Assembly: GCA_965223865.1 (NCBI GenBank)
Contig: OZ245020.1
Coordinates: 1,664,001-1,728,000 of the forward strand
Reading direction: 5' to 3'
Source: Nitrosarchaeum sp.
Lineage (GTDB): Archaea > Thermoproteota > Nitrososphaeria > Nitrososphaerales > Nitrosopumilaceae
Length of the DNA stretch: 64,000 bases
A model generated the notes under the pieces. It was not told where the DNA came from, searched no databases, and saw only the letters and a program-made list of their open reading frames with translations. A program made the position numbers and the translations under genes. Shown in pieces: positions 5,283 to 27,747 of this stretch; within the stretch, counting starts at the first letter, position 1, and every line of letters starts with the position of its first letter.

Positions 5283-8200
5283 GATGTCTTTACTGATGGA
5301 ACCCGCTTGTCATTGTACGTTACTACATGGGAAACTCCATTTTTTGGATATACACCATAAATCAGTTTAGCTTTTTGTACAACAGAGTCTTTTAGTGACA
5401 CCATAATGAATTGGCTTTCCTTTGCTCTTTCTTCTAATATAGTGGATAATTTTTCAGAGTTTGGTGCATCAAGATGTGCATCAACTTCATCAAATAGATA
5501 GAATGGAGATGGTTTTAGTTTTTGAAGTGCAAGAACAAACACAATTGCAGCCAAAGTCTTTTCACCACCGCTAATCGATGTCGATTCTCGTTTTGGTTTG
5601 TTTGGGAATTGAATTAAATAAGATATTCCAGAATTAAAAATATCGTCTTCGTTTTGCAGTTCAAGCCAAGCATTTCCTCCAGTCATCTTATTGAAGATTA
5701 AACGAATTTCTTTGTCAACCTTATCAAATGCATCTAGAAATGTTTGGCGTTTGTCTTTTTCTATGTTTTCAATGAATTTTACAATAGAATTTCGTTCCTC
5801 TTCTAGTGAATTTTTACGCGTGGACATTGAGCGATATCCATAAGAAATCTCAAGATAGGTTTCAGGAGCTTTGGCATTGAGTGCATTCAAAGAATTAAGA
5901 TCAGTTGTCAGCCCTTGTACAATTGGTTCAACATCAAATGTTTCCATGTTTTTAGCAAATCCAAATGCAGATAAGATCTGACGTAATTTTGATTCGCTCT
6001 CATTTAGATCATGTAAATCACGATTTAAAGAATCAGAGTGTCGTTCTAGAGAATTGACCCGTTTTGTGAACTCTTTATCTTTATCAGTAAGAACCTTGAG
6101 TTTTTCATCGTATTCTTTTAATTTTCCTATAGAAGAGCCAGAAGTAGAAATCAATTCTTGTTCTTTTTCTCTTAGTTTCACTAATGTTTGACTTTTGAGC
6201 TCTTTTTCTTTTTCAAGAGTATTGATTTTGGTTTGTAGTTCTTCACGTTGTGAAATAAGAGAAGATTCTTCTTCATGAAGACTGTTGGCATGTGATTTTT
6301 CCCTATTTTCTTCAGTGTGTAAAGAGGTCAAATTAGAGGATTTGTCTCGATACTCGTTCATTATTACAGTATACTGTTTTTCAATTTCGGATTTTTTTTC
6401 ATTAATTTTAGATAGTTGATTTGCAATACGGGTTTGTTCCCCACTTGCATAATTTTCTTCAACTATTGCAATTCTTTCATTCAGAGATTCGATATGAGAC
6501 TCGTAAGTAGTTATTTCAACTGGAAGGTTACTATTTTTTTTATTTAATTCAGAAATTCTTTTAGAAAGTTGTTCCTTCATTTTAATGGCAGAGGAGATTC
6601 TTGATTTTAGATTAGAATAATTCTCATCAGTTGAAGCAAATCCCTTTTCTGATATTGAAAGCCTTTCCACATAGCTATGAATTGAACCTTCTATTTTCTT
6701 CAAAGAGTGTTTTTTCTTTAACACATATTTTTTCAGTAGGCTAATTGAATGAAGGAGTCCTTCAATATCTGTACTCATTGAGATGATTTTTGTTAATTTT
6801 GAGATTTTTGAGTTAATATCAATGATAATTGCACCGCCTTTAGCCTCAAAATACTCTCCATTTATGGTCACTGCCTTGTAGCCAAGTTTTGATATTCTAT
6901 GTGCTGCCTCTTGAGTTTCAGTTAAGATCACATTACCAAACAAAAATGTCTTTAGTGCAGAATATTTTTCGTTACATTTTACATAATCAGATAAAACTCC
7001 TAAAACGGCAGGATCTTTTGGGAGGTTCAATTTGAATTTAGGAATTGCATCAAAAGGGATAATTTTCAGTTTAGGCAAATTTTTAGAGCGAACAACTTCA
7101 GCGATACTAAGCAAAGTTGCAAAGTCTTGAACAACAATTGATTTAATCCAATCAGAACTTGCTGCAAGTATAGGACGTTCATACTTTTTGTCCCAAGAAA
7201 TCATCTCATAGACTAGTCCAACGATTCCAAGTTTTTCAGCATCTTCTTTTAATTTAGCAATTGTATAATCTTCATGCATAATTCCTTTGACAGTTTTAAT
7301 TTTTGTTTCATATTGTGCTGCAGCTTTGCTAGATTTTTCTAAAATTAAATCGAGTTCTTCAATATCATGAAGAGTTTTAGATTTTTTATGATTTAATTTT
7401 GTAATTCTTGTTTTGAGTTCCTTAATAGTTGCATTATGATTATTGAGAATAGATTCTAATCTTATTTTTAGGTTTGATAGTTTCTCGATGTCTAATTCTA
7501 ATTCAGTTAATTTTGAGGCGTTAAATTTTACTTTGGCATCTAACTCTTCTTTTTCGTGTTCGGCCTTCGATAATTTTAATTTTACATCATTTATCTGGTT
7601 TGATAGCAATTTTATTTTATCATCTATTTCAGATTTTTTTGATGCAATAGCAGATTGTTCATTTAAAATTTTACTTCTTTCAGAATCGATTAATTCCAAG
7701 TCATCGTTGATTTTTTTCTTTTTAGAATCTGTTTGATCCAAGGTATTTTGGATTTGTTGAATTTTTGATTCAAGCTCCTTGCGAGAGTGCTCAATAGATT
7801 CTAGTTCTGTTTTAATTTCGGGTATTCTTTTATCTATTTGTTGGACCCTTTTAGTTGATGCAACTATTGAGCTATTATCAATTTCATATTGCTCCATTGC
7901 TGCACTTAATTCAGAGTCAATGGCTGCCTTTGCTTGGCTATAATCATCTGCTTGAGCCATAAGTTTTGATTTTTCTGATTCTAACTGAGAGATTTCATTT
8001 CTAATTATGCTTCTTTCTTCCTCAGATTTCTTAATTTCAGAGGAAATATTTGTCAATGTTTCCTCTTTTGTGCATTTTTTACTTGTAACACCCTTGAGTT
8101 TGTTTGCTGCAGCAATTGCTTTGTAACGATTTAATTCACGCTCAAGTAGATCATACCTGAGTTTTTGGTTTCTTTCCTCTTCAAGCTCATCAATTCTTTT

Positions 8201-13280: not shown

Positions 13281-13516
13281 CCACAATCTAGAATCTCGAT
13301 TTGTGGTTCACATTGTTCATTGAACAAATCAATTCTTTCAACTAAAACTTCACAATATTCAGCATCAAGGGATTGCTCATAAGTTTTCAAATCATTTAGA
13401 AGTGACATGTGCTGTATACCACAGAAATTTCCAGACACAGATAAAACAACTACAGCCGCAAAAATTACTGAAAAGACTAAGATTAAATTTTTAATTTTAT
13501 TTTTTTGAAATGTCAA
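13277..13516 (-). CDS. Small membrane-anchored hypothetical protein
   Basis: One TM helix followed by four Cys, ends ILDCG; TTG start inferred. Confidence 0.55.
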   Translation of the reverse strand: MTFQKNKIKNLILVFSVIFAAVVVLSVSGNFCGIQHMSLLNDLKTYEQSLDAEYCEVLVERIDLFNEQCEPQIEILDCG

Positions 13517-14225
13517 TTTCCATAGTGGATACATTACGCTGTTTTCCATCTTGAGAAGTAAGTGAATCAGATGAAATTCTAACATCACTAATTGTATAGC
13601 CTACTGTATCCATTCTTTTTACAATCATTTGAGAGACATCAACTGCCTGAGTAATTCTTTTTCCCCTTGCTTTTATTGTGACAGTATCTCTTGATGCAAG
13701 TTGTGTCAAAGTAGCTGAAACATATGTCATAATAGGTTTAGTACCAACAAAAATCACATCTCTTTCTTGAGGTTTGGTTTCTGATTTGGTTCCTATTGCA
13801 GCCTCAGGAGCTGGTTCTGGTGTCGTTTGTGTTGGTTCAGGAGCTGGTTCTGGTGTCGTTTGTGTTGGTTCAGGAGCTGGTTCTGGTGTCGTTTGTGTTG
13901 GTTCAGGAGCTGGTTCTGGTGTCGTTTGTGTTGGTTCAGGAGCTGGTTCTGGTGTCGTTTGTGTTGGTTCAGGAGCTGGTTCTGGTGTCGTTTGTGTTGG
14001 TTCAGGAGCTGGTTCTGGTGTCGTTTGTGTTGGTTCAGGAGCTGGTTCTGGTGTCGTTTGTGTTGGTTCAGGAGCTTCTAGTTTTGGTTCTGGTTCAGGA
14101 GCTTCTAGTTTTGGTTCTGGTTCAGGAGCTTCTAGTTTTGGTTCTGGTTCAGGTTTTGATTTAACTGAATCTTGAAATTCTGATAAAATATCTTCTGCAT
14201 CTTTTGATTTTTTTTGACTACTCAA
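13497..14225 (-). CDS. Alba-family DNA/RNA-binding protein with Pro/Glu/Thr repeat N-terminal extension
   Basis: C-terminal Alba domain: [34 protein letters not shown]. Confidence 0.9.
13804..14153. repeat. Coding VNTR: 8 x 33 bp (13804-14067) plus 3 x 27 bp (14068-14148), units identical
   Basis: tcaggagctggttctggtgtcgtttgtgttggt x8; tcaggagcttctagttttggttctggt x3. Confidence 0.97.
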
Positions 14226-14584: not shown

Positions 14585-15679
14585 TTGGAAAATAGAGTAG
14601 TTTTCCACATTGATTTTGATTACTTTTTTGCACAGTGCGAAGAGATTAGAAAACCTGAACTAAAATCAAAGCCAGTATGCGTTTGTATCTTTTCTGATAG
14701 GGGAGGAGATAGTGGGGCTATTGCAACTGCAAACTATACAGCAAGAAAATTTGGGGTGAATTCTGGGCTTCCTATTATCTTTGCAAAAAAGAGACTAGAA
14801 GGAAGACCAGATGCCGTATTTTTGCCTGCAGATTTTGATTACTATATTGAAATTTCTGAAAAAGCCATGCAAATAATGAATGACTTTGCAGATGTTTTTG
14901 AATACGTAGGAAAAGATGAAGCCTACCTTGATGTGACAAATAGACTAGAAGGAGATTTTCAAAAGGCAAGCCATTTAGCCCAGCAGATAAAAAATGCAAT
15001 TAGAGACAAAGTAAAGATGAGTTGCTCCATAGGAGTTTCTCCAAATAAACTAATCTCAAAGATGGCATCAGATTTTCAAAAACCTGATGGGCTGACAGTT
15101 GTTCCACCACAAAAGGTTGAAGAATTTTTAGAGTCATTAAAAATTAGAGACATTCCAGGTATTGGCAAAAAGACGGAACAAAAATTATCTCAAATGAATC
15201 TAGAAACAATTGGAGATTTAAAAAAACTAGACGTCTTTACGTTAAACAAAGAATTTGGAAGAAAAAGTGGCACATACATCTTTAATTCTGTAAGAGGCGT
15301 AGATGACGAACCAGTCAAGAAAAGAGAAGCTACAATTCAATTTAGTAAAATTGTCACTCTGAAAAAAGATTCCAAAGAATTAGAGTTTTTATCTCAAAAC
15401 TTGGAGGAGATTTGCAAAGAGTTGCACCAAGTAGTACAAAAAAACAATAAGATGTTCAAGTCAGTTGGAATTCAATTCATACAGTCAGATTTATCAAACA
15501 AGACAAAATCAAGGATGCTCAAAAACCCAACTGAAGGCTTTGAAGAATTGAATAAAAATGCTCAGCAACTATTGAGAGAAGCACTAGTTGATCAGCAAAA
15601 CACCATCAGAAGGTTAGGAGTGAAGGTATCAGAACTTTCAGATGTAAAGGGTCAAAGTAGTATTACTAGTTATTTTTAG
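14585..15679 (+). CDS. dinB: Y-family DNA polymerase IV (Dbh/Dpo4)
   Basis: HIDFDYFFAQ, ANYTARKFG, DEAYLD, KPDG, IPGIG; C-terminal PIP-like QSSITSYF. Confidence 0.96.
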   Translation: MENRVVFHIDFDYFFAQCEEIRKPELKSKPVCVCIFSDRGGDSGAIATANYTARKFGVNSGLPIIFAKKRLEGRPDAVFLPADFDYYIEISEKAMQIMNDFADVFEYVGKDEAYLDVTNRLEGDFQKASHLAQQIKNAIRDKVKMSCSIGVSPNKLISKMASDFQKPDGLTVVPPQKVEEFLESLKIRDIPGIGKKTEQKLSQMNLETIGDLKKLDVFTLNKEFGRKSGTYIFNSVRGVDDEPVKKREATIQFSKIVTLKKDSKELEFLSQNLEEICKELHQVVQKNNKMFKSVGIQFIQSDLSNKTKSRMLKNPTEGFEELNKNAQQLLREALVDQQNTIRRLGVKVSELSDVKGQSSITSYF

Positions 15680-16610
15680 CAACGGATTTTTGCTCAGCTT
15701 CCTTTTTTTTAAATCGCCTTGATTCAATCAGAATAACGATTAGCAGAAATACGAAAAGCCAAGGTAAGAACAGAATTTCCCCTGCAACTGAATGGAATTC
15801 TTCCCACTGTTCGGCATCAGTTGTAACTTTGAGGGCATACCACGAAAGAGAAAAGATTCGAATTACATTAACACCAATAGTTCCGCATATTCCTATTGCA
15901 AAGTAGATAGACTTTCTTCCTCTTGCAATGTTCATCTTTAGTAAAAATGCTCCCATCACTAAGGAATAGATGATAATGCTGTGCACACCAGCTGATGGCC
16001 AAAAGACCTGAAGTACCATTGGGCCATAATCTCCTCTGAGGAACATGATATTATCCCTAGCTGTTGCAACACCAAGATCAAATACAGTCACTAACCAAAC
16101 ATTTGTTTGCACAAGATATGGAACCACATACTGCAATGGACCTAGTGAATCATACGGGAAGAATGCATCAAGGGATAAAATTATTGCACTACCTCCCAAA
16201 AAGATAGGACCGGCAGGAGCTATACGAATCCATCTAGAACCAAAGAAGATACTAAGCGCTGTCATGATAAACAGAGTCATTACAACAAAATCCCATAACC
16301 ATGTCCAAGAATAGATTAATTGAACGCTGTAAGATTCTGCTGATTCTAAAATGTAATCTCGAAGACCAAACTCCAACCCAACAAGATATGCAATTACACC
16401 TGCTGCAATTGGAATAACAGATAACAATCTCTTTTTGGATATAACAATCTTTAATCCTACTAGTTCTGCTACAACAAAAACAAGGGCAAAAAGAAAACCA
16501 CCCCTTCCCTGGTTCCAGCTTAGACTAAAGGTGTCAGGAAATACAATCAATGCAAACAAAATAGGGCTGGAGATGATTCCGATTCCTGCCATTAGATTCC
16601 AATTTTGCAT
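15666..16610 (-). CDS. artG: Thaumarchaeosortase (exosortase/archaeosortase family)
   Basis: Polytopic membrane protein with VFWPSAGVHS, NVIRI, FHSVAGE at the sortase catalytic positions. Confidence 0.8.
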   Translation of the reverse strand: MQNWNLMAGIGIISSPILFALIVFPDTFSLSWNQGRGGFLFALVFVVAELVGLKIVISKKRLLSVIPIAAGVIAYLVGLEFGLRDYILESAESYSVQLIYSWTWLWDFVVMTLFIMTALSIFFGSRWIRIAPAGPIFLGGSAIILSLDAFFPYDSLGPLQYVVPYLVQTNVWLVTVFDLGVATARDNIMFLRGDYGPMVLQVFWPSAGVHSIIIYSLVMGAFLLKMNIARGRKSIYFAIGICGTIGVNVIRIFSLSWYALKVTTDAEQWEEFHSVAGEILFLPWLFVFLLIVILIESRRFKKKEAEQKSVAKNN

Positions 16611-17903: not shown

Positions 17904-18860
17904 TTGAGAAACAAAAGGGGAAGTATGACAATTAACAGAATAGTCTCTTTTTTGCCTAGCGCCACAGAATTACTGTACGAGCTAGAAGAACAAGACAAAA
18001 TTTATGGTGTCACACATGAGTGTCATTACCCAACAGATGCAAAATCAAAACCTCAAGTCATTTCTTCAGTTATTGATTCTGAAAATTTATCCAGTAAAGA
18101 AATTGATCAAAAAACATGTGAGCTGTTAAACCAAGGAAAAGACATTTTTGTTTTAGATGAAGAAAATCTCAAAAAAGCAGATCCGGATCTAATAATCTCT
18201 CAAAAGACATGCGAAGTTTGTGCTGCATATACAAATCAGGTTAACAAAGCAGTTCAAATTTTACAAAAAAGACCATTACTTTATTCAATGGACCCACACA
18301 ATCTACAAGAAATACTATCCTCTGTAAATGAGCTAGGAAAGATATTGCAAAAAGAAGACAAGGCAAGAGAGATTGTAGAATCTTTGGAAAAAAGAATAAA
18401 GAGAGTCTCAGAAACCAAGAGAGATGTCAAACCCAAAATATTGGCAATAGAATAGATAGAGCCGTTTTTTACTGCAGGTCATTGGATTCCTGAAATTATA
18501 GAGTTAGCTGGGGGTCAAAATATGATTAGCAAAATAGGTGAACATTCTAGAAGATTAAACATGCAAGAAATTATAGAATCAGATCCAGACATCATATTAT
18601 TGATGCCATGTGGTTTTGATACGCAAAGAACCATATCTGAATATAATATTTTAAAAAACAACCAGGAATGGAATTCCTTAAGAGCAGTAAAAGACGGAAA
18701 TGTTTTTGCAGTTGATGCAAATTCTTTTTTTAGTAAGCCTAGCATTAGGACAGTTACTGGCTTGGAGATAATAACAAAAATAATTCATCCAGAAAACATA
18801 GAACTAAAAGTTCCCGAGGAGTCATTTTTACAGATTAGGACAAAATCATTGTCTGAGTAG
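17904..18860 (+). pseudogene. Cobalamin/Fe-siderophore ABC substrate-binding protein (BtuF-like) interrupted by one in-frame TAG at 18453-18455
   Basis: RIVSFLPSATE, GVTHEC, CEVCA, then LAIE*IEPFFTAGHWIPE continuing in frame to PCGFD..FSKPS. Confidence 0.85.
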
Positions 18861-19002
18861 ATAAATTTTAAACAAATCTTTGGTTCAAATTTGAATGGGG
18901 TACAACATGTAGGGGAATATAGATAGAGACATACATTTTACACTAAATTTTGTGCCTAAAACAATCAGAAATTGCAACAGGTTTTACTGATTTTTTGGAT
19001 GG

Positions 19003-19017
19003 AAGATTTTGCACTAA
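19003..19017 (+). repeat. AAGATTTTGCACTAA intergenic motif, copy 1
   Basis: 14/15 match to 19663-19677. Confidence 0.7.
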
Positions 19018-19112
19018 GATTTATTATTGAATTTTTTAGATCTGATGATTGGTTAAAATCCACAGGTACTTGATAATACTTTAGAGATAAATTTCGGTTC
19101 AAGTAGATTTGA

Positions 19113-19619
19113 TTATTTTAAAACTTTGTAGTATAAATCGACTAATTGATCATACTTTACAGTTTTAACAAATTCAAGTTTTGTCTCGTTTTCTATGTTC
19201 TTGAAGAGAGGTTTTCCTTTGCCTAAAATAATTGGAATGACAGATATTATTATCTCATCTATAGCTCCTTGATTAAGAAAAGATGCAATAATTTGTGCTC
19301 CACCAACCAACCAAATGTTTTCTCCTGCATCTGGAAAACCATCTTTTACAAATTTTTCAACATCCAATAAAAATTCAATATTTTCATCTTTATTTTGAGT
19401 AGAACTAGTAAAAACAAATGATTTTTTGTCTTTGTATGGATATTCTCCAAAAGTTAGTACTTGATCATAGGTGGTTTTACCCATAATCACAGTATCTATT
19501 GAGTCATAAAATGCACCATATCCAGATTCAGTAGCGTTTGGTAACCAATCAATTCCATCATTTTCCCTCGCTATGTATCCATCCAAGCTTGATGCGATAT
19601 ACACTAGAACTGTTGTCAC
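19113..19619 (-). CDS. Dihydrofolate reductase / RibD C-terminal family protein
   Basis: IASSLDGYIA, MGKTTY, WLVGGA, IDE, PIILGKG. Confidence 0.92.
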   Translation of the reverse strand: MTTVLVYIASSLDGYIARENDGIDWLPNATESGYGAFYDSIDTVIMGKTTYDQVLTFGEYPYKDKKSFVFTSSTQNKDENIEFLLDVEKFVKDGFPDAGENIWLVGGAQIIASFLNQGAIDEIIISVIPIILGKGKPLFKNIENETKLEFVKTVKYDQLVDLYYKVLK

Positions 19620-19662
19620 AAGAGTTGTAATTGTTTCAGAGTTATAATGTTATATTCAACTC

Positions 19663-19677
19663 AAGATTTTGTACTAA
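19663..19677 (+). repeat. AAGATTTTGTACTAA intergenic motif, copy 2
   Basis: 14/15 match to 19003-19017. Confidence 0.7.
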
Positions 19678-19723
19678 ATTTCAATAGGAAAATTAAATCA
19701 TTCTTTATTCTAAAAACTAAAAA

Positions 19724-20371
19724 TTAATTCCAATCATGATCCCACACTTCATCTGGAAAAGATCTATTGCTAATATCAATATCCATATCAATATCCAAAC
19801 TATATTCAATCAAGTCTGGAAATTTACAGTCTGTATCTTTGGGAATAACAATTGACTCATGATGGAACATGTAGTATTGAACACCCTCTTTTTCTGTGAT
19901 TCCTTGGTATTTTAGAACCCCTAACACTTTTGATGAATCAGATTCATAAAAAGACAGATTAGAAAATCTGTCCGACAAATGTATCAAACCACAGTTAACT
20001 ACAAAAGTTTGATTTTTTTCTATTGGTGTAACATACGTAAGATTATCTTGTATTTTTGATTCCATGTTCAGTTTTCCATCTGTTACAAAATAATTAGAAT
20101 TGAAGGTGACCTGAATTGTCCCATCATTGTTTTGCATGATGTGAGTCATTGACGCATAGTATTTTCCATCTCTATCCACTCGATCATAATGAGTGTCCCC
20201 TCCATTTCTAAATCCATCATTTTCTATCATGTATTCAGCATCTTTTAGTACATTTTTGATACTGCGAACATCTAGTGAATCAGTTGAATCATTATCTGAA
20301 TAAATTAAGAAAAATATTCCAGATACTAAACTTCCAATGAGTACAATCAACCCTATTGCAAACTTGTCCAA
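19724..20371 (-). CDS. Hypothetical membrane-anchored protein
   Basis: 215-aa ORF with N-terminal TM helix. Confidence 0.75.
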   Translation of the reverse strand: MDKFAIGLIVLIGSLVSGIFFLIYSDNDSTDSLDVRSIKNVLKDAEYMIENDGFRNGGDTHYDRVDRDGKYYASMTHIMQNNDGTIQVTFNSNYFVTDGKLNMESKIQDNLTYVTPIEKNQTFVVNCGLIHLSDRFSNLSFYESDSSKVLGVLKYQGITEKEGVQYYMFHHESIVIPKDTDCKFPDLIEYSLDIDMDIDISNRSFPDEVWDHDWN

Positions 20372-20458
20372 ATCTTATCTTCAAAATTTTAAGTGAAGTT
20401 AAATGTGAATCTATAACGGTGCAAATGAGGCTCAAATTTTGCATCAAATCCTAAATTG

Positions 20459-20480
20459 AAGACCAACTAGAGTTGGTCTT
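20459..20480. promoter_or_regulatory. Perfect inverted repeat AAGACCAACT-AG-AGTTGGTCTT
   Basis: 10-bp arms, 2-nt spacer, intergenic. Confidence 0.6.
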
Positions 20481-20496
20481 ATCAATGAGACAACTA

Positions 20497-20535
20497 CACT
20501 AGGAATCAGCTACAATCTTGGGTATGAAAATGGAC
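20497..20535 (+). repeat. ~39-bp intergenic repeat, copy A (CACTAGGAATCAGCTACAAT..GTATGAAAATGGAC)
   Basis: Aligns with 23174-23211. Confidence 0.8.
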
Positions 20536-20777
20536 GCAATTAATCAAAACAAAATACTTTGATAGAATGCAATAGTGAATGTTGTAATCGCCACACTAAA
20601 CACAAAAATTCCATATGCAGAATATTTGATTATTTTATTCACAGTATTAATTCACATTCAGAATATTTAAGGGCAATTTTGTAGAGACTAATCTTTTTTA
20701 GAGAATATGTTGGTTCACTGTAAAAATTGAGAGATTATCAATTTAAAAAATAATAATATCAATTACAATAAAAAATT

Positions 20778-21095
20778 GTGACAATATATTCAGTTAAAGC
20801 TAGATACATTGAAGAAAAGATGAAGGAATTTTATCAGAAACTAACTGATGGTACAATTCAGAACCAGAAACCTGATGGGCAGGAGATAATTAATTCAATG
20901 AAACGTGCTAAAATAACTGAACATGATGTAATTCAATGGTCTGAGATGTGTTTTTGTTCCCCTCCATTAAAACATGAACGTGAAACTGTGTACAATCAAT
21001 TTCTAACAGACATGGAAATTACAGTCATTGATGATTATGTAGAGTATGAGGGAGAATTGTTTATGGATTTTTTAGCAAAACAAAGTAAAGAATAA
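20778..21095 (+). CDS. Conserved hypothetical protein
   Basis: 105 aa, QKPDGQEI..WSEMCFCSPPLKHERETVY. Confidence 0.75.
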   Translation: MTIYSVKARYIEEKMKEFYQKLTDGTIQNQKPDGQEIINSMKRAKITEHDVIQWSEMCFCSPPLKHERETVYNQFLTDMEITVIDDYVEYEGELFMDFLAKQSKE

Positions 21096-21101
21096 TTCAA
21101 A

Positions 21102-21337
21102 TCATGGGAATCTGTTCTTTATCCACTTACATGAATTTTCGTCAATGGTATGAGTACCATTATCATAGATATACAATGACAAAGAACCACTTCGCTCAAA
21201 GCCCATTGCACAGTTGTACAAAATTATTCCCAAATGATCTGCTGTCTGTGCAACGTAAAAGGAATAATTATTGTGATTAGAACAATTGTAGTTATCAGAA
21301 CTATCGCAATCAAAATAACAAAATTTCTAGTTTTCAT
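21102..21337 (-). pseudogene. Frameshifted small membrane-anchored protein (MKTRNFVILI.. / ..YDNGTHTIDENSCKW)
   Basis: ATG overlaps the upstream TGA; frame 1 gives a signal anchor then stops; a shifted frame continues to TGA at 21102-21104. Confidence 0.6.
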
Positions 21338-21342
21338 TTTCT
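21326..21342 (-). repeat. 17-bp junction repeat AGAAAATGAAAACTAGA
   Basis: Identical to 21964-21980. Confidence 0.9.
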
Positions 21343-21975
21343 TCTCCAGTATAATGTCAAACCAATTCCTGAACCTGCATCTATTACTATTGCACTAATT
21401 ATTATCGGCAAAGTAAAGCTATACTCGTTAAAAATTCCAATACCTGAACCAAAACCCATGCTTTCTTCTGCTAGAAACCTTTTCTCAGATGCTAGTCTCA
21501 ATGATTCGTCATCAGAATACGGATCATGTGGAACAATGATTTTTTCTTCTTGAGGATCTTCATCTAGTAATGTTTGACTTCCAATTACTCTGGTAGAACA
21601 CATGTTAGTTTGACCTACAGAATTTTGTTCAGTAATGCCCCAGCCAAACACTTGATAGGTATTTCCTTTACTATAATTAGGATCACAAGAATTAAGCATT
21701 CTAGTTTCATTTTCACTAAAGTAGAGATTTACATTTGTCATAACAAAATATCCTTCTTTCAAATCTCCTTTCTGAACAGAATGTATCATAAAATGCACTT
21801 TTTGAAAATCTGAACCATCTTCTGTTTTGATCACGGTTCCTTGAAATGCCGTATCTGCATTTGCTAATGTCTCAAAGTAATCAGGATTTGCAGCACAAGA
21901 ACATGCAAAAGATTCTTGATATACTAAAGTCGATATAAGTAAAACAGATACAAATATGAATAATCTAGTTTTCAT
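21334..21975 (-). CDS. Secreted, C-terminally anchored protein with TIMP/NTR-like domain
   Basis: Signal peptide ESFA followed by CSC..ADTAFQGTV; C-terminal TM-like segment and WRRK. Confidence 0.75.
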   Translation of the reverse strand: MKTRLFIFVSVLLISTLVYQESFACSCAANPDYFETLANADTAFQGTVIKTEDGSDFQKVHFMIHSVQKGDLKEGYFVMTNVNLYFSENETRMLNSCDPNYSKGNTYQVFGWGITEQNSVGQTNMCSTRVIGSQTLLDEDPQEEKIIVPHDPYSDDESLRLASEKRFLAEESMGFGSGIGIFNEYSFTLPIIISAIVIDAGSGIGLTLYWRRK

Positions 21976-21980
21976 TTTCT
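21964..21980 (-). repeat. 17-bp junction repeat AGAAAATGAAAACTAGA
   Basis: Identical to 21326-21342. Confidence 0.9.
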
Positions 21981-22925
21981 CTTCTCAATTAATTCTAATA
22001 ATTCCTCAGGCAGACTGTCATACTGTTTTTCATATTGTTTAATCATGTCTTGGGTACTTTGATCATCAAAGTAACCATGAACCATTTTCCCAACAATATT
22101 TCCCAAGTCTCCTTGTTTGTTCATCTCTGAGAAAAACTTCCATTGGGATTCTGGATCGACAATACCAGTCATTGATTCTCTTTCTAACTGTCTGCGTTTT
22201 TCATTCAATGTTTGAGAGTAATCATAAATAGATTGACGCCATGGATCTAGTACTATCTTGCAAAATTCCCCATTGGAATAGTTGGATATAATATCGTCAT
22301 AGTTGTGTGTTGCAAATCTATAGTCGGTATCACCATCAAAACAATGTAAAAATAATGATTCTTTGTCTGTTATTTCATGGGTGCATGAACTTAGATGAAA
22401 GTATGTTGATGCACTCTGATTTTTACTATTTATTGCAAACAATCCATAATGGATATTGGATTGATGACTTCTTTCATCTTGAATGGATAATTCAAGATTG
22501 TATGGAGCATATTTTTTTGTAAATATTTTATAATTTTCAGTCTGTGAGAGTTTTTTCATGTGCAGAGGGATCATCCTCTCAAAATCACATACGGATGATG
22601 GTTCTAAATCAAATCGTTCTGCCCAATGAGTGCTATTTTGGAATGGATAGTACCCTTCAAGTAACTTTACATGTTCAATTTCTAATCCCAGATAATCTGA
22701 AGAAATTTCTTTTAATTTTTCTTGCATTTGTTTTTTTGATTCATCAAATTTTTGTTCATTTCCTATCAATTGGTATTTTTTTGATAATTCATTAATTTGA
22801 ACTAGTTCGTTAGAATGCTTTTCAAATGATATTGATTTTGGAGAATCAGGATTTTGATAAATAAGAAATAAAGTAGAAGATACAAGGAACGTCATTATGA
22901 CAATTATTTTAAATTCAATTTTCAT
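21972..22925 (-). CDS. Hypothetical membrane-anchored protein
   Basis: Start taken at MKIEF inside the junction motif; N-terminal TM helix; 317 aa. Confidence 0.78.
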   Translation of the reverse strand: MKIEFKIIVIMTFLVSSTLFLIYQNPDSPKSISFEKHSNELVQINELSKKYQLIGNEQKFDESKKQMQEKLKEISSDYLGLEIEHVKLLEGYYPFQNSTHWAERFDLEPSSVCDFERMIPLHMKKLSQTENYKIFTKKYAPYNLELSIQDERSHQSNIHYGLFAINSKNQSASTYFHLSSCTHEITDKESLFLHCFDGDTDYRFATHNYDDIISNYSNGEFCKIVLDPWRQSIYDYSQTLNEKRRQLERESMTGIVDPESQWKFFSEMNKQGDLGNIVGKMVHGYFDDQSTQDMIKQYEKQYDSLPEELLELIEKRK

Positions 22926-23082
22926 TTCCATGTTTTCCATAACAATCATCTGGCGACGCAACCTTTGTTACAATCTCCAAGTCATATTGAGGAATATCAA
23001 TAATTATTGAATCAACATATGCATAAGCAACTCCAGTAGAGAAAACTGAAGAAAAAAGTACAAGGAGCAGAGGAATTTTCAA
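22915..23082 (-). CDS. 55-aa signal-peptide ORF, probably truncated (MKIPLLLVLF..DDCYGKHGNEN)
   Basis: TTG start, AYA cleavage-like site, stop falls inside the junction motif. Confidence 0.55.
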   Translation of the reverse strand: MKIPLLLVLFSSVFSTGVAYAYVDSIIIDIPQYDLEIVTKVASPDDCYGKHGNEN

Positions 23083-23173
23083 ACAATGTGACTCAATTTA
23101 GGATATTCATAAAGTGTTCTGATGTTTGTTCTGTTAAAAAGACGGTTAGTTCAAGACTCTACAAGTTAAACCC

Positions 23174-23211
23174 CACTAGGAATCAACTACAATTCGAGTA
23201 TCAAAAGGGAC
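23174..23211 (+). repeat. ~38-bp intergenic repeat, copy B (CACTAGGAATCAACTACAAT..GTATCAAAAGGGAC)
   Basis: Aligns with 20497-20535. Confidence 0.8.
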
Positions 23212-23291
23212 AGAAATAAGATAAAAATCAATTTTGATAAAAATAAGAATATGTTAAAAGAGTAAAAGATATAATTTTGTCAATGGTTTTG

Positions 23292-23748
23292 ATGAAAACT
23301 TTCCTTATCGGACTGTCTGTTTGTTTGCCTATTGCAGTAACATCAGAAGTTTTTGCAGAGACCATCATTCCATATAGAGGAATATTTGAGTGTGGGAGAT
23401 TCCAGATATTTTACTGATATTGGAAGGTTTTTAGTTTTTGAGGATATTGTGACTGGTAATGGAGAAGTAATTTGGGTTCCAGATTAAGGTGATGGCACAG
23501 GAGGTTATGAAATTAGTCGTTATACAATTTCTGACGATATTGGAAACAGTATTTCTTTTGAAGCTAAAGAAATATTTTATCAGGAATATGCTAATCATAA
23601 ATTTACCGTTGGACAATATGAGTGGAAAATTCTTAATGGTACAGGCAAGTTTGTAGGAGCTACCGGTCAAGGAATGGATCGTGTATGGTACAAATTATCT
23701 GATATGTCATATAGAGGAATTTCGTCAGGAAGTATTATTCTTGAATAA
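23292..23748 (+). pseudogene. Degraded secreted beta-barrel protein (dirigent/allene-oxide-cyclase-like)
   Basis: Signal peptide MKTFLIG..VFA, one frameshift or deletion, one internal TAA, then WKILNGTGKFVGATGQG. Confidence 0.65.
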
Positions 23749-24018
23749 TTCTCTTAGCAATCCAAGATTTACTTAAAGACGATCCGAATCTTTAAATTCA
23801 AACTTTTTCTGGGAAATAATTTTTGCTCGATCCGCTTTAGGGACTTACCATATTATTCATATAATGAAATCTTGTCAATACTTTATTGTAGATTTTAGTT
23901 TTCTTGTTTTGTTGCAAATTCTTTTTGAGATACCAATGTATACTTATTAATTCCCAATCTCTTTCTTTCCCCCTAATAATCATGTTCATGATTTTTCTTG
24001 ATTTCGTCTAAGGTTCAC

Positions 24019-24456
24019 TTACTCTATTCCCTTGGTAATGAGGACAGGGCATTTTGCATGTCCTATTACATTACTTGCAACACTTCCCAAGACAATCTTT
24101 CTAAAACCTGTTCTGCCATGAGACCCCATAACTATCAAATCAACATTGTTGTTGTCTGCATAAGATACAATACCATCAGCCGATGATGGATTGTGGATTA
24201 CTTTTATTGACAATTGAATATTTTTGGACTTTGCCTTTTCTTCTAGATTTTTAAGCATTGCAGTAGCATCTTCAATCTGTTCATCTTGCATTTCTCCAAG
24301 TCGTTCAATGGAAACTCCAGAAGAATCTCCTAATTTTGCCTGCAAGACAGTTAACGCTGTCAGTTTTGAATCGAATTTCGAGGTTATCTCCAATGCCTTT
24401 TCAAATGCCTTTTCTGAGTATTTAGAACCATCAAACGGGACTAGAATATTTTTCAA
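24019..24456 (-). CDS. Universal stress protein (UspA family)
   Basis: ILVPFDGS, DLIVMGSHGRTG, LGSVA, CPVL. Confidence 0.95.
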   Translation of the reverse strand: MKNILVPFDGSKYSEKAFEKALEITSKFDSKLTALTVLQAKLGDSSGVSIERLGEMQDEQIEDATAMLKNLEEKAKSKNIQLSIKVIHNPSSADGIVSYADNNNVDLIVMGSHGRTGFRKIVLGSVASNVIGHAKCPVLITKGIE

Positions 24457-24726
24457 TACGTGGTTGTTTATTTTTTTGAATTTATATCCTTTGAATAATT
24501 TTTTCCTACCTATCTGATTTTTTTTGTTAAAATTTCACCATGATTTTTTTAAAATACTAATACTTTACTCATGAGAGACCAAATTCTACATTTTTTTAAA
24601 ATTATCAAATAGATTTTTTTATTTTGATGAGACATGGCCTGTCATTGCCGAGGATTTTAGAATTAAAATCATTATACAACTACAATGTTCAGGTCTAGTT
24701 GCTCTAGATTTTGGGAATAAGAGAGT

Positions 24727-25191
24727 TTATGCAGATTCTGAGATGTCATCTTGTAAGTTGACTACCTTGAATATTTTGACAACGTAATCCCCTTCAAAAA
24801 AGTTTGTTACTTCTCCAGTGTCCATATTCACATCTCTTACCCGGAACTTGTATTCGTAAGAACCGTTATCTTCCACATCAACTTGGGCAACATGTATTGG
24901 GTCATCCCCATTTTCTTCATTGAAGAATTGTATAATGACAGGATAGTCTTGTGCATGATTATCTATTTTGCCTTCAACATACGCCCAAGGCAGAGTATTG
25001 TCCTTTGGAATGTTTAGCAGCATGGTTGTCTTTTCAATACTAGTATCATCACTGTGTGGAATAACTGTGGTTTCTGCAGTTTGAGATTGTGGTTCTGCAA
25101 GAGAGTTTGGCATTACTGCGACTGTAAAGAGCACTCCAACTGAAAACAATCCCATAATTAGAACTGTGTTTCTTGAAATTCCACTTTTCAT
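24727..25191 (-). CDS. Secreted hypothetical protein
   Basis: Signal anchor; YPVIIQF..GSYEYKFRV..FEGDY. Confidence 0.75.
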   Translation of the reverse strand: MKSGISRNTVLIMGLFSVGVLFTVAVMPNSLAEPQSQTAETTVIPHSDDTSIEKTTMLLNIPKDNTLPWAYVEGKIDNHAQDYPVIIQFFNEENGDDPIHVAQVDVEDNGSYEYKFRVRDVNMDTGEVTNFFEGDYVVKIFKVVNLQDDISESA

Positions 25192-25547
25192 GAGGTTTTT
25201 CCTTTTTTGTGTTTTAAAAGAATTGCTCCAAATTTACACCTAATAGAAGGATAATTTCCAGAAACTAAGAGAGCATTCCAAGTGTGTTCATATAAGATAT
25301 TAAAAGAATCGTTTGTCCCAATAAAGCCACCGGGGCGCTCATCAAGTTTTATCGAACCTAGATTATTTTGAATATCTAAAATAGTATTTGGGATATTTGA
25401 CATGTAATTTCCAAGCAGAATAAATGGAGCAAATACTAGACCTGTTCCTGCTGCGCCAATCATCTTCAAAAAATCGCGTCTAGAGAGTTCATTATTTCTC
25501 TCTTGTTTTTTAGTCTACAGAGAACAGCTTTTATGCTGTTCCGACAT
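25188..25547 (-). pseudogene. Remnant of a Tat-exported protein (in-frame TAG at 25515-25517)
   Basis: MSEQHKSCSL*TKKQERNNELSRRDFLKMIGAAGTGLVFAPF. Confidence 0.6.
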
Positions 25548-25635
25548 GGTCTATAATATGTATTTCATATCTAAACTATGAGAAACAATTTTTTGAATTG
25601 ATGTTATGATTGGAAAAATTCATTAATCAATAGTT

Positions 25636-26121
25636 TTAGGATTGTGGGTTTATTTTGCATTCTACTTTGAGTGATTTAACAGTTGTATAGTACGTAAGCA
25701 CAAGTACTCCAATTGCAGCTATTCTTATTGGAATCTCAAAATTTGTCAGAAAAGAGGATGCTGTAGCTCCTACAGTTCCAAAAGTAGAGATTACTGCAAA
25801 TCCAATAGGACCACAGCTACATGCACCTGCAGCAGCACCAATTATTGAGCCAAATACTCCTCCACCCATTTTCTTTTTTGAGCTTTTCAGAATATTGATT
25901 CGATAGACATTCATTGGAATTACCAATGCAGACAATCCAGACAAAATAACAATTAATGAAAATCCAATTTCTGTTCCCTTTGGAATATGACTGACTACAT
26001 AGGGTTCAAGAAAAACATACTCAGAGATTATCAACAACCCCATAAGCATGGGTAAAAAAATTGCAGTTGCCAGTGCAATGTATCGGTGATTGGAAAATAC
26101 GAGTTTGAGTGTGTTTGTCAT
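25636..26121 (-). CDS. Membrane protein with CSC motif
   Basis: About 4 TM helices, GACSCGPIG; 1-bp gap after the DsbA-like gene. Confidence 0.75.
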   Translation of the reverse strand: MTNTLKLVFSNHRYIALATAIFLPMLMGLLIISEYVFLEPYVVSHIPKGTEIGFSLIVILSGLSALVIPMNVYRINILKSSKKKMGGGVFGSIIGAAAGACSCGPIGFAVISTFGTVGATASSFLTNFEIPIRIAAIGVLVLTYYTTVKSLKVECKINPQS

Positions 26122-26122
26122 T

Positions 26123-26797
26123 TTATATCATAGAATCTAGTACTTGCTTAAAAACCGAATAAGGTTGAGCTCCTCCTATTTGTTGCTGACCATCAGGGCC
26201 TACAATGAAGAATCCAGGAGTGCCTCGTACCCCATGTTTTTTTGCCTCATCAATATTATGTTGAACTCTTTTAGAGTATTTTCCAGAATCAAGACAGTTT
26301 TCAAACAATTCCATATCAAGGCCTAAACTAAATGCAAATGCTTTTAGGCGTTCAGAATTTGCCCAACCATTATCAATTTTTGATTCTTGGGAATTGTACA
26401 GTATATCATGATACTCCCAGTATTTTCCTTGGTCTTCTGCGCAGTATGATGCCTGAGCAGCTCTAGGTGAATCTCTACCAAGAAAAGCAAGATCAACAAA
26501 AACAAAGTTTGCCTTACCAGTATCTACATAATTCTCAAATATAGCAGGTTTTGTGTTATGATACCAATTATAACATTGATGGCATTGATAATCACCAAAT
26601 TCCACAATAGTAATTGGCGCAGAAGGGTTTCCCAGAATTGAAGAACCCATTGCAGTTGAAATGGTGCCATGTGTTCGGCTCATATCTAAATTAACAGTTT
26701 CAGATTGGGACGATACAGAATAAGATGCAACGATTGCAATGATTACTGCAGTAACCACTGCACCTATTACAAGCCCCTTTCTCATATCAAAAAACAC
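26123..26797 (-). CDS. DsbA-family thiol-disulfide oxidoreductase
   Basis: EFGDYQCHQC, CAEDQGKYW, GTPGF; N-terminal anchor. Confidence 0.92.
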   Translation of the reverse strand: MFFDMRKGLVIGAVVTAVIIAIVASYSVSSQSETVNLDMSRTHGTISTAMGSSILGNPSAPITIVEFGDYQCHQCYNWYHNTKPAIFENYVDTGKANFVFVDLAFLGRDSPRAAQASYCAEDQGKYWEYHDILYNSQESKIDNGWANSERLKAFAFSLGLDMELFENCLDSGKYSKRVQHNIDEAKKHGVRGTPGFFIVGPDGQQQIGGAQPYSVFKQVLDSMI

Positions 26798-27064: not shown

Positions 27065-27367
27065 ATGAAGAAAATAGCAAACAGGATTGTAACAGATTTT
27101 TTTGTTTTTGTCTTTGGAGTTTTATGGTTTTTTAGCATAAGATATCAAGTAAAGCCAGATCAATACAACATTATTGTTTATGATGTGTTAGGAAAACAAG
27201 TAAAACTTGATGGAATTAGAACAAGTTTCAAAACAAAGGAAGTTGCGACAAGTTTTCTAAAAGAATACAAGAATCGTTTTACACATTATGAGTTTTCAAT
27301 AGCAGAGACTATTCCTGAATTTAGGAGAAGATTAGTATTCTCAAAAATTTTAAGAAATCAAAGATAG
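27065..27367 (+). CDS. Hypothetical protein (start uncertain)
   Basis: ORF fills the gap; basic composition. Confidence 0.5.
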   Translation: MKKIANRIVTDFFVFVFGVLWFFSIRYQVKPDQYNIIVYDVLGKQVKLDGIRTSFKTKEVATSFLKEYKNRFTHYEFSIAETIPEFRRRLVFSKILRNQR

Positions 27368-27747
27368 TGTATTTTCATGTGGTTTTGATGTTCTACCTCA
27401 TATTGTGTAACAAACCCGCAATGAGAACACGAGAACATTTCAGGTGGGGGTGGAGATGGCTCTCGTTCAATAGACTTGCCAGAAATGGATTTAATTGTGA
27501 TTATATCATTACTAGAAATTACCGCAAAATTACGTCCCTCTCCTATTGAATCTAGAAATTCTCTAATTGATGAAATAACTACATTTGTGTCTACAGGTTC
27601 GTCATCGAACATGGATAATGTAAATTGGTGGTGTTTTATGGTAGGGATGGCTGCAACCTGATCAGATACATAGACTAGCAACTCATTTTTGATTGATGCA
27701 ACATCCTTACAATCAACTGTTAACATAGTCACCTTTTGCAGACTCAA
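27358..27747 (-). CDS. Hypothetical protein with C-terminal C2H2 zinc finger
   Basis: CSHCGFVTQYEVEHQNHMKIH. Confidence 0.8.
   Translation of the reverse strand: MSLQKVTMLTVDCKDVASIKNELLVYVSDQVAAIPTIKHHQFTLSMFDDEPVDTNVVISSIREFLDSIGEGRNFAVISSNDIITIKSISGKSIEREPSPPPPEMFSCSHCGFVTQYEVEHQNHMKIHYL

What the first reader, a model, noticed from the sequence alone, without database searches (positions are those of the whole stretch)
21102..23082. Translationally coupled cassette array joined by a conserved GAAAATGAAAACTAGA motif
Seen: four unrelated signal-peptide/TM ORFs in tandem on the minus strand. All three junctions share one motif: GGAAATGAAAATTGA (~22915-22929) and AGAAAATGAAAACTAGA twice identically (21964-21980, 21326-21342). 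The motif holds the ATG of the next gene (MKTR/MKIE) and stops in two frames (..RK* via TGA, ..NEN* via TAG/TGA), and both stop frames are actually used. Recombination between the 17-bp copies would remove the 213-aa gene exactly and keep coupling intact. The first ORF appears cut off at the motif and the last is frameshifted. Inference: a promoterless cassette-stacking system for surface proteins in which the recombination site is also the start/stop signal. This is the best candidate for an undescribed system in this window.
Basis: partly seen in the sequence, partly recalled or inferred. Interest (0 to 1): 0.85.

Follow-up and report, generated by a model that had tools for sequence, protein, structure and literature searches.

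The report
Shared start-stop joint in archaeal gene arrays
Ammonia-oxidising archaea keep rows of unrelated secreted-protein genes joined by one short DNA word that ends one gene and starts the next, and related genomes differ by whole genes gained, lost or swapped at that word.

Summary
AGAAAATGAAAACTAGA stands twice, exactly, at 21326-21342 and 21964-21980, with a looser copy at 22915-29. It joins four co-oriented genes (A, B, C, D); D is a frameshifted, truncated pseudogene.

The word is the conserved 5' "leader" of a large gene family, not a local oddity. It covers about -5 to +12 around the ATG, codes MKTR, and carries stop codons in up to three frames. The genome has 5 exact copies (0.002-0.004 expected) and about 22 leader genes in five arrays. 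Twenty-two of 201 family genomes carry 5-23 copies of its 13-base core; the reversed control reaches 5 in one genome.

In the nearest relative, three of four array rearrangement breakpoints lie inside the word. The fourth lies in another shared module. Gene B sits at different chromosomal places in different genomes, and 12 B loci have 8 kinds of downstream gene.

I found no recombinase within about 50 kb of the arrays, no hairpin site at the joints and no circular or deleted form.

Best reading: a self-contained stop/start joint whose copies also serve as short homology for ordinary recombination. The cassette behaviour is supported; a dedicated recombination system is not.

The parts
22915..23082 (-). 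ORF A, 55 aa, TTG start, signal-peptide-like N-terminus. It ends ..GNEN* by reading through the leader of B in its third frame.
   Evidence: No homologue with E below 0.5 in the genome or the loci held at that point.
22915..22929 (-). Joint 1, looser leader copy GGAAATGAAAATTGA. It holds the ATG of B (22925-22923) and the TGA stop of A (22917-22915).
21972..22925 (-). Gene B, 317 aa: N-terminal membrane helix plus a helical/beta domain of unknown fold. Member of a family of 77 sequence clusters, no Pfam family, closest named a Nitrosopumilus hypothetical protein (79%).
   Evidence: Paralogue at G000:1031034-1031990, 60% identical. DNA likeness to it runs exactly from B's ATG to 9 bases past C's ATG.
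21964..21980 (-). Joint 2, exact 17-mer AGAAAATGAAAACTAGA. It codes ..RK* of B (TGA) overlapping the ATG of C.
21334..21975 (-). Gene C, 213 aa: signal peptide, then a domain starting CSC that looks TIMP/NTR-like, then a C-terminal module (PHDPYxDDESLR..GSGxG..membrane helix..RRK) shared with other proteins.
   Evidence: The model is weak (mean pLDDT 57.8), yet nearly all top PDB hits are TIMP/NTR modules (best E 2e-3).
21326..21342 (-). Joint 3, exact 17-mer. It codes ..RRK* of C overlapping the ATG of D.
21102..21337 (-). D: frameshifted and 3'-truncated pseudogene of the 139-aa leader-gene family found at G000:1047250-1047669.
   Evidence: two frames; E 1e-6 and 7e-22
18836..25648 (.). The 6.8-kb variable island that holds the array. 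Three relatives of the same genus have only about 185-216 bases between the same flanks, and a fourth has a different, larger insert.
   Evidence: No tRNA gene in 10000-32000.
19724..20371 (-). 215-aa secreted protein. It is a paralogue (36%) of the 255-aa gene that stands directly before B' in the array at 1030 kb.

Best explanation
The motif is the conserved 5' 'leader' of a large, fast-changing family of genes for secreted or membrane-anchored proteins of Nitrosopumilaceae. It spans about -5 to +12 around the start codon and is often followed by similar signal-peptide codons (MKTR-LLII).

The leader carries an ATG, usually three A's before it, and stop codons in up to three frames: TAG at -6, TGA inside ATGA, and TAG/TAA/TGA at +9. 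Any gene placed upstream is therefore closed within a few codons, and the next gene starts at once. That is why upstream proteins end in ..RK, ..ENEN or just before the word.

Every unit carries the same 13-17 bases, so ordinary short-homology recombination or replication slippage between copies deletes, duplicates, inserts or swaps whole genes without breaking a frame. Other shared modules, such as the C-terminal anchor, can serve the same way. Arrays become mosaics that differ between close relatives and move between lineages as islands.

Shown: the motif, its three-frame use, its restriction to arrays, its spread over several genera, and breakpoints inside it.

Inferred: that recombination is homology-driven with no dedicated enzyme, that neighbouring genes are translationally coupled, and that the products are surface proteins under diversifying selection.
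For: 1. Family trait, not junction trait. Of 5 exact 17-mers in the genome, 3 start MKTR genes that do not overlap a long upstream ORF. All 5 copies of ATGAAAACTAGA are preceded by AGAAA.

2. 22 leader genes in G000 share -5..+12 in 15-22 of 22 at each position. At those same upstream positions the general gene set shows A in about 40% (G in 13% at -4).

3. Constraint at nucleotide level. Thr codon 3 in G000 array genes is ACT 16, ACC 4, ACA/ACG 0 of 20. In MKT genes elsewhere ACA/ACG make 8 of 18 (Fisher p 0.0009).

4. Three frames are in use. Of 62 leader genes, 20 have ATGA overlaps, 12 have the upstream stop at -6, 8 have 11-base overlaps, 19 have other spacings and 3 have no upstream ORF. 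25 of 62 carry stops in all three frames.

5. Restricted to arrays. 6 of the 7 motif-bearing ATGA overlaps, out of 100 ATGA overlaps in all, lie in arrays that make up about 2% of the genome.

6. Spread. 22 of 201 family genomes have 5-23 copies of the 13-base core, in four genera; the reversed control reaches 5 in 1 of 201. The copies lie in rows in the genomes inspected.

7. Breakpoints against G004. A 3,637-bp four-gene block is present in G000 and absent in G004, with the crossover inside the shared AGAAAATGAAAACTA. Both ends of the 93%-identical copy of that block elsewhere in G004 also break inside the ATGAA.AC word. A fourth breakpoint lies in shared anchor-coding sequence about 50 bases upstream.

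8. DNA likeness of B to five relatives ends 9-23 bases after the next ATG.

9. No recombinase within about 50 kb of an array and no hairpin site at the joints.
Against: - Only one closely related genome pair gave nucleotide-resolved breakpoints (4 events).
- Selection for intact genes would by itself push surviving breakpoints to gene boundaries, which here are the motif.
- Fifteen bases is short for classical homologous recombination. That archaea can use it is my recollection, not tested here.
- By-product recombination does not explain why synonymous and non-coding positions of the word stay fixed across genera. That calls for a direct function (expression signal or enzyme target) that I could not identify.
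- Complementarity to 16S rRNA is at chance level: 8 bases, reached by 102 of 500 shuffles.
- Paralogy makes the codon test non-independent.
- Some gene pairs are conserved: B followed by an F24-like gene in 4 of 12 loci.
- No population-level variant at the window's own joints was seen (contigs only).
Confidence: 0.55

Rival explanations
1. Expression signal only. The word is kept because it is a good start context plus the charged start of a signal peptide, in an AT-rich genome with tightly packed operons. Rearrangements happen anywhere, and only those at gene boundaries survive, so the motif has no role in recombination.
For: - AAA, ACT and AGA are common codons (AAA 0.77, AGA 0.63, ACT 0.36).
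- ATGA overlaps are ordinary: 100 in this genome. Termination-reinitiation coupling is described for archaea (PMC6728339, listing and start of abstract only).
- GGAG stands 8-13 bases upstream in several overlap-type joints (listing), and the 16S rRNA ends ..CCTCCT.
- Some neighbour pairs are conserved.
Against: - The crossover in G004 lies on 15 bases identical in both parent sites, with sequence identical to one parent on each side. That is the signature of homology-guided exchange, not of a random break.
- The fourth breakpoint also lies on shared sequence.
- Thr ACA, the commonest Thr codon (0.46), is absent from 20 array leaders.
- The motif is nearly absent from other ATGA overlaps (1 of 93).
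Confidence: 0.25
2. A dedicated cassette system. An unrecognised site-specific recombinase, or another enzyme encoded elsewhere, acts on the leader word as its attachment site. It excises and inserts single genes, as in integrons or shufflons.
For: - 3 of 4 breakpoints lie inside a 15-base word.
- The word is conserved at non-coding and synonymous positions across at least four genera.
- A four-gene block sits at different motif copies in two close genomes.
- The 22.7-kb array island is 98-99% identical between genomes whose other shared segments are 91-95% identical.
Against: - No tyrosine recombinase within about 50 kb of any array, and no serine recombinase in the genome.
- 9 array proteins gave no Pfam family above its cut-off (one weak sub-threshold hit, CxC5, E 0.003).
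- No inverted repeat or stable single-strand fold at the joints (z 0.59, -0.40, -0.83).
- One breakpoint lies outside the word.
- The only recurrent non-leader neighbour tested, a 449-aa CDC48_N/DUF5643-like protein, is found in 7 of 22 leader-rich genomes.
- No circle or deletion joint in laid contigs.
Confidence: 0.1
3. Coincidence of codon bias. Two MKTR genes that follow ..RK genes would share these 17 bases by chance.
For: Given the residues RK*/MKTR and this genome's codon usage, identical codons at two joints are not very unlikely (codon table).
Against: - 5 exact copies against 0.002-0.004 expected.
- 3 of them have no RK-coding upstream gene.
- The reversed control finds 0 copies in 41 genomes.
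- 10-23 copies of the core stand in rows in some other genera's genomes.
Confidence: 0.02

Closest known systems
Tandem paralogue clusters with a conserved recombination segment: the Staphylococcus aureus lpl lipoprotein cluster (Tsuru and Kobayashi 2008, PMC2568036; outline and abstract read)
   Same: - Co-oriented tandem genes for exported proteins in a genomic island.
- A highly conserved nucleotide stretch in every unit that serves as a site for homologous recombination.
- Strain-to-strain rearrangements that shuffle the variable parts.
   Different: - There the conserved stretch is in the middle of each ORF and the genes are paralogous throughout.
- Here it is only 13-17 bases, spans the stop/start joint so that the exchanged unit is a whole gene, and joins genes with no detectable likeness (24 families plus singletons).
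- Archaeal, and spread over several genera.
Integron gene-cassette arrays (features recalled, not read here)
   Same: Rows of co-oriented, tightly packed, mostly single-gene units of unrelated function, bounded by a repeated site, with content that differs between strains.
   Different: - No IntI-type recombinase next to the arrays.
- No attC-like imperfect palindrome or hairpin.
- The repeated site is coding and contains the start codon.
- One breakpoint lies outside the site.
Translationally coupled overlapping gene pairs, ATGA type (Huber et al. 2019, PMC6728339, and PMC10666635; search listing and start of abstracts only)
   Same: Co-directional genes with 4-base overlaps or very short spacers: 20 of 62 leader genes have ATGA overlaps.
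   Different: - The word extends well beyond ATGA.
- It is used in three frames and is kept where there is no overlap.
- It is almost absent from the other ATGA overlaps of the same genome (1 of 93).
Variable surface lipoprotein loci of mycoplasmas (vsp, vsa, vpma) with conserved 5' region and signal peptide (recalled, not read here)
   Same: Clusters of surface-protein genes that share a conserved 5' end and signal peptide while the mature parts differ; recombination occurs at the shared 5' end.
   Different: - Those use an adjacent Xer-like recombinase and inversions that move one promoter.
- Here all genes are co-oriented, no inversion was seen and no recombinase is nearby.

Membership tests
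Integron cassette array | Integron integrase (tyrosine recombinase) gene adjacent to the array | tested here: not met
   PF00589 matches in G000 lie only at 860-866 kb, 1627 kb and 1857 kb. The arrays lie at 204-208, 1026-1055, 1685-1687 and 1972-1978 kb.
Integron cassette array | attC site: imperfect inverted repeat that folds as single-stranded DNA at each cassette boundary | tested here: not met
   No inverted repeat at the joints. DNA folds of the three joints are no better than shuffles (z 0.59, -0.40, -0.83).
Integron cassette array | Co-oriented, promoterless cassettes expressed from one upstream promoter | not testable with these tools
   Co-orientation is seen. Promoters and transcripts could not be assessed; no RNA run is listed.
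Translationally coupled overlapping gene pairs (termination-reinitiation) | Co-directional genes with -4/-1 overlap or very short spacer | tested here: met
   B/C and C/D are ATGA overlaps. Of 62 leader genes, 20 have ATGA overlaps, 12 a 3-base spacer and 8 an 11-base overlap.
Translationally coupled overlapping gene pairs (termination-reinitiation) | Downstream translation depends on upstream translation | not testable with these tools
   Needs reporter fusions or ribosome profiling.
Tandem paralogue cluster with conserved recombination segment (lpl type) | A conserved nucleotide segment in every unit | tested here: met
   Positions -5..+12 are shared by 15-22 of 22 leader genes. The 13-base core occurs 10 times in G000 against 0.6-0.9 expected.
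Tandem paralogue cluster with conserved recombination segment (lpl type) | Rearrangement breakpoints between strains fall in the conserved segment | tested here: met
   3 of 4 G000/G004 breakpoints lie inside the word. The fourth lies in another shared module.
Tandem paralogue cluster with conserved recombination segment (lpl type) | Units are paralogous over their whole length | tested here: not met
   With the first 25 residues masked, array proteins fall into 24 families plus many singletons. B and C show no mutual hit.
Site-specific inversion systems for surface proteins (mycoplasma vsp/vsa type, shufflon) | Inverted copies of the site and an adjacent recombinase | tested here: not met
   Leader genes within a row run in one direction in the arrays read, and no recombinase is nearby.
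TIMP / NTR module (for gene C only) | OB-type barrel with N-terminal Cys-x-Cys directly after the signal peptide | tested here: inconclusive
   - Nearly all top Foldseek hits are TIMP-1/2, complement C345C, PCOLCE, meteorin and agrin NtA modules (E 2e-3 to 4e-2), but none at E <= 0.001 and the model is weak (pLDDT 57.8).
- No Pfam TIMP hit at E <= 1.
- Atlas lead: TIMP in 14% of the members of one hit cluster.
- That TIMPs begin with CxC is recalled, not tested.

The most novel reading that the evidence does not exclude
The leader word is the working site of an undescribed archaeal gene-cassette mechanism. An enzyme encoded away from the arrays, or a recombination route peculiar to these archaea, recognises AAAATGAAAACTAGA. 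It moves single surface-protein genes and whole array islands within and between genera of ammonia-oxidising archaea. The same word guarantees that any inserted gene is correctly stopped and the next one started.
Probability: 0.12. Interest if true: 0.85.

Novelty: new variant of a known kind. Interest (0 to 1): 0.62.

Why it matters
Ammonia-oxidising archaea are among the most abundant microbes in the sea and in soils. Their strain-level differences sit largely in islands of unannotated secreted proteins.

This finding gives those islands a grammar. One short word marks the unit boundaries, closes any upstream reading frame and opens the next gene, and it is where close relatives differ.

That has three practical uses:
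- It allows the accessory surface-protein gene set to be listed by a simple pattern.
- It predicts where strains will differ.
- It gives a testable model of how genes with nothing else in common can be traded as ready-to-express units without an integron-like enzyme.

If a dedicated enzyme exists after all, it would be a first cassette system of this kind in archaea.

Tried and rejected
1. Reads. All 20 listed runs are Logan contigs and no RNA holder is listed. I laid contigs of 4 runs (X5-X8) of the 17 that hold part of the stretch, on window 18000-26500.
- No joint at 21326/21964 and no circle.
- The two listed joints (19380>24910 and 19504>23010) have sides of 21 and 27 letters and are unreliable.
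- Loose ends at 21966 and 22010 fit the paralogous B'/455-aa joint.
- Loose ends at 21904-21914, at the end of C's signal peptide, in two runs may mean that C's domain sits behind other sequence elsewhere. Contig ends cannot show it.

2. Domains. Pfam and NCBIfam on the 8 ORFs of the locus, and Pfam on 9 array proteins plus the 314-aa membrane protein at 15666-16610: nothing above a family's cut-off. My guess that the 314-aa protein is an archaeosortase got no Pfam support.

3. B's fold. The model is confident (pLDDT 91.3). Foldseek's best E is 0.1. VIA-align found only generic helical matches on residues 226-318, Z at most 7.9. The Atlas gave no usable hit.

4. rRNA pairing of the leader: 8 bases, reached by 102 of 500 shuffles.

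5. Hairpins and inverted repeats at the joints: none.

6. Recombinases: none within about 50 kb of the arrays.

7. Co-occurring partner. The 449-aa CDC48_N/DUF5643-like neighbour occurs in 7 of 22 leader-rich genomes and 11 of 179 others. It is enriched but not required, and related genomes are not independent. These counts include the unpublished genomes G174 and G168.

8. ORF A: no homologue with E below 0.5.

9. My first Thr-codon count was circular, because the pattern excluded ACA. It was redone without that bias.

10. Array at 204-208 kb against G004 and G003: no high-identity counterpart, so no breakpoints could be read.

11. Literature. Three full-text searches listed nothing on this motif or these arrays in Nitrosopumilaceae. 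Supplements were closed, so this is not proof that it is unpublished.

12. Earlier notes of the scan: nothing on this.

13. PDB sequence search with the C alignment: only a chance hit, E 1.6.
Full report
WHAT IS IN THE WINDOW

On the minus strand four ORFs follow one another:
- A: 22915-23082, 55 aa, TTG start.
- B: 21972-22925, 317 aa.
- C: 21334-21975, 213 aa.
- D: 21224-21337, with a second frame at 21102-21233.

AGAAAATGAAAACTAGA stands exactly at 21964-21980 (B/C) and 21326-21342 (C/D). A looser copy, GGAAATGAAAATTGA, stands at 22915-22929 (A/B). Start-to-start spacing is 638 and 950 bases.

B and C end ..RK* on the TGA of ATGA. A ends ..NEN* on a TGA eight bases after B's ATG.

D is a broken copy of a 139-aa leader gene found at G000:1047250-1047669. 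Residues 1-33 and 34-75 align in two different frames, and the last 64 residues are missing.

Whether A is truncated cannot be told, because no homologue with E below 0.5 was found.

My protein searches with B used 21972-22928, which adds one residue before the true start.

MORE THAN CHANCE, AND WHAT THE WORD BELONGS TO

The window is G000:C1:1664001-1728000, in a 2.01-Mb genome of 34% G+C.

The exact 17-mer occurs 5 times in the genome against 0.002-0.004 expected. All 5 copies of ATGAAAACTAGA are preceded by AGAAA. The other three copies (205002, 1028345, 1050912) also start MKTR membrane-helix proteins, but they do not overlap a long upstream gene.

The word therefore belongs to the 5' end of the downstream gene.

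I found 22 such 'leader' genes in G000, in five places: 204-208 kb, 1027-1035 kb, 1046-1055 kb, 1685-1687 kb (the window) and 1972-1978 kb.
- Positions -5 to +12 are shared by 15-22 of 22, often followed by CTTTTGATAAT, which codes LLII.
- At those same upstream positions genes in general show A in only about 40% (G in 13% at -4).

The conservation is partly at nucleotide level. In G000, codon 3 of array MKT genes is ACT 16, ACC 4, ACA/ACG 0 of 20. In MKT genes elsewhere ACA/ACG make 8 of 18 (Fisher p 0.0009). Paralogy makes this test non-independent, and an earlier count of mine was circular and is withdrawn.

ONE WORD, THREE FRAMES

The leader carries TGA inside ATGA in all 62 leader genes examined (G000 plus fetched pieces of G003, G004, G165, G131 and two contigs). 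It carries a stop at +9..+11 in 50 of them and TAG at -6..-4 in 27; 25 have all three.

Upstream genes end in all three ways: 20 ATGA overlaps, 12 stops at -6, 8 eleven-base overlaps, 19 other spacings and 3 without an upstream ORF.

This explains the recurrent protein tails ..RK..ENEN and ..YEN. Among 77 B homologues, 39 end in RK and 2 in NEN. The tails come from reading the leader, which shows that the word is primary and the upstream frame incidental.

NOT A GENERAL PROPERTY OF OVERLAPPING GENES

Of 100 ATGA overlaps between long ORFs in G000, 7 carry the word, and 6 of those lie in the arrays. The arrays make up about 2% of the genome.

Of 21 stop-3-bases-ATG joints, 12 begin TAGA, and 8 of those lie in arrays.

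SPREAD

The exact 17-mer is in 3 of 41 relatives searched: G000 with 5 copies, G004 with 4, G003 with 2. The reversed control finds 0 in all 41.

The 13-base core AAAATGAAAACTA, with 0.6-0.9 expected per genome, reaches 5-23 copies in 22 of 201 genomes of the family:
- These lie in four genera: g1 2, g13 14, g17 5, g37 1 genomes.
- The reversed control reaches 5 in one genome.
- The tally includes the unpublished G174. Without the three unpublished genomes it is 21 of 198.

The copies stand in rows. In G165, eight consecutive genes at 521097-524330 are joined by 4- or 11-base overlaps, and there are ten core copies within 485.8-501.5 kb.

GC-rich genera that have B homologues lack the leader.

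GENES COME AND GO AT THE WORD

G004 shares with G000 a 22.7-kb array island at 98-99% identity (G000:1026422-1028381 plus 1031982-1052732 against G004:109392-132068).

Inside it G000 has 3,637 bases (four genes of 130, 511, 255 and 318 aa, the last being B') that G004 lacks. G004 reads like the left parent up to AGAAAATGAAAACTA and like the right parent from it.

A 93%-identical copy of three of these genes lies elsewhere in G004 (138725-142041). Both of its ends also break within the ATGAA.AC word. The gene after B' is 455 aa in G000 and an unrelated 357 aa in G004, diverging from about codon 5.

A fourth breakpoint, at the island's right end, lies not in the leader but about 50 bases upstream of one, in shared anchor-coding sequence (GGAATTGTT).

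B's DNA likeness to its paralogue runs from its ATG (22925) to 9 bases past C's ATG. Its likeness to homologues in a MAG and two metagenome contigs ends 18-23 bases past C's ATG; against one metagenome contig it begins 2 bases before B's ATG.

B homologues sit at different chromosomal places in those three contigs.

Among 12 B loci with a downstream gene there are 8 unrelated kinds of neighbour. The order is not random, though: an F24-like gene follows B in 4 loci and a C-like gene in 2.

With signal peptides masked, array proteins fall into 24 families plus singletons, in differing orders.

THE ISLAND AROUND THE FINDING

Window 18836-25648 is missing from G003, G005 and G001, which have about 185-216 bases there. 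G004 has a different insert of about 20 kb, if its record is circular. There is no tRNA gene nearby.

B is closer to homologues of another genus (79%) than to its own paralogue (60%).

TESTS FOR DEDICATED MACHINERY

- Tyrosine recombinase genes lie at 860-866, 1627 and 1857 kb only, and no serine recombinase was found.
- Joints have no inverted repeats and fold no better than shuffles.
- Nine array proteins have no Pfam family above its cut-off.
- A 449-aa CDC48_N/DUF5643-like gene adjoins arrays in G000, G165 and G131. It is found in only 7 of 22 leader-rich genomes (which includes the unpublished G168 among the others).
- Laid contigs of four runs show no leader-to-leader deletion or circle. 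Raw reads were not available.

WHAT THE CASSETTES ENCODE

B has a confident model (pLDDT 91.3): one membrane helix plus a helical/beta domain with no informative PDB match.

C has a weak model (pLDDT 57.8). Its top PDB hits are nevertheless almost all TIMP/NTR modules (E 2e-3 to 4e-2). An Atlas cluster with TIMP in 14% of members is among its nearest. Its mature end would begin CSC, which is how TIMPs begin as far as I recall.

C's C-terminal module (PHDPYxDDESLR..GSGxG..helix..RKRK) is shared with proteins that have other N-terminal domains.

MECHANISM

Most likely (0.55), the leader is a self-contained stop/start joint of a large family of exported proteins. Its many identical copies act as short homology for ordinary recombination or slippage, so whole genes are the units of gain, loss and exchange. 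The breakpoint in a second shared module and the lack of any nearby enzyme or structured site favour this over a dedicated system (0.10).

A pure expression-signal reading, in which breakpoints are placed by selection alone (0.25), does not explain crossovers lying on identical bases.

What none of these fully explains is why silent and non-coding bases of the word are so constant across genera. A direct function remains to be found, and this keeps the bolder reading alive.

COMPARED WITH WHAT IS KNOWN

It works most like tandem paralogue clusters that recombine at a conserved stretch (S. aureus lpl; PMC2568036, abstract read). Here, though, the stretch is the gene joint itself and the genes are otherwise unrelated.

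It resembles integron arrays in layout but fails both of their defining features tested.

It includes ordinary ATGA coupling but goes beyond it.

Three literature searches found no description of it. Supplements were closed.

Noticed in passing
G000:C1:1026422-1052732 (outside the window) against G004:C1:109392-132068: A 22.7-kb array island is 98-99% identical between the two genomes. Other shared segments are 91-95% identical and the island's flanks are not syntenic. This suggests recent transfer of the whole island between lineages.
   Followed up: partly
window 21334-21975 (-): Gene C looks like a membrane-anchored TIMP/NTR-module protein. It has CSC right after the signal peptide, and its top PDB hits are almost all TIMP, complement C345C, PCOLCE, meteorin and agrin NtA. 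The model is weak. An archaeal TIMP-like protein would be unusual.
   Followed up: partly
window 21334-21500 (-) and homologues P0083-P0088: A conserved C-terminal module (PHDPYxDDESLRLASEKKF..GSGxGFFDES..membrane helix..RKRK) is attached to different N-terminal domains. It looks like a sorting or anchor signal but matches no NCBIfam C-terminal sorting model.
   Followed up: no
G000:C1:1037188-1038534 (-); L023:8358-9554; G131:C1:436806-438053: A 400-450-aa protein with weak CDC48_N and DUF5643 matches stands beside leader arrays in three genomes of two genera. In G165 and G131 it is followed by a small protein ending CWIKDGLGFV.
   Followed up: partly
window 27358-27747 (-); L022:3678-4058; L018 about 7804-8184: A 126-129-aa protein family with a C-terminal Cys/His pattern (..C..C....H...H..) directly follows arrays in G165 and G003. 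A 38%-identical paralogue lies in the window, with another on contig C3. No Pfam family.
   Followed up: partly
G000:C1:1038622-1042086 (-), 1048353-1048697 (+); G004:C1:138688-138731: A second recurring start context, TTAGAAGAACTTATGAA (coding MNL..), heads three otherwise different sequences. A 44-base copy of it (97.7%) links G000:1026500-1026543 with the region just before a G004 array gene.
   Followed up: no
window 13497-14225 (-): A 242-aa protein with eight tandem copies of a [12 protein letters not shown]-like unit before what looks to me like a small nucleic-acid-binding domain. The repeat also gives long ORFs on the other strand.
   Followed up: no
window 18836-25648: The island is largely built of diverged copies of genes found elsewhere in the genome: a 168-aa protein (65% to 1873964), a universal-stress-like protein (many paralogues), a 154-aa secreted protein (50% to 1171612), plus B and the 215-aa gene.
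   Followed up: partly
L020:3960-4060; L021:2570-2590; G000:C1:208491-208503: Leader words without a following long ORF stand at the ends of arrays or after a lone B gene. They look like vestiges of lost downstream genes.
   Followed up: no
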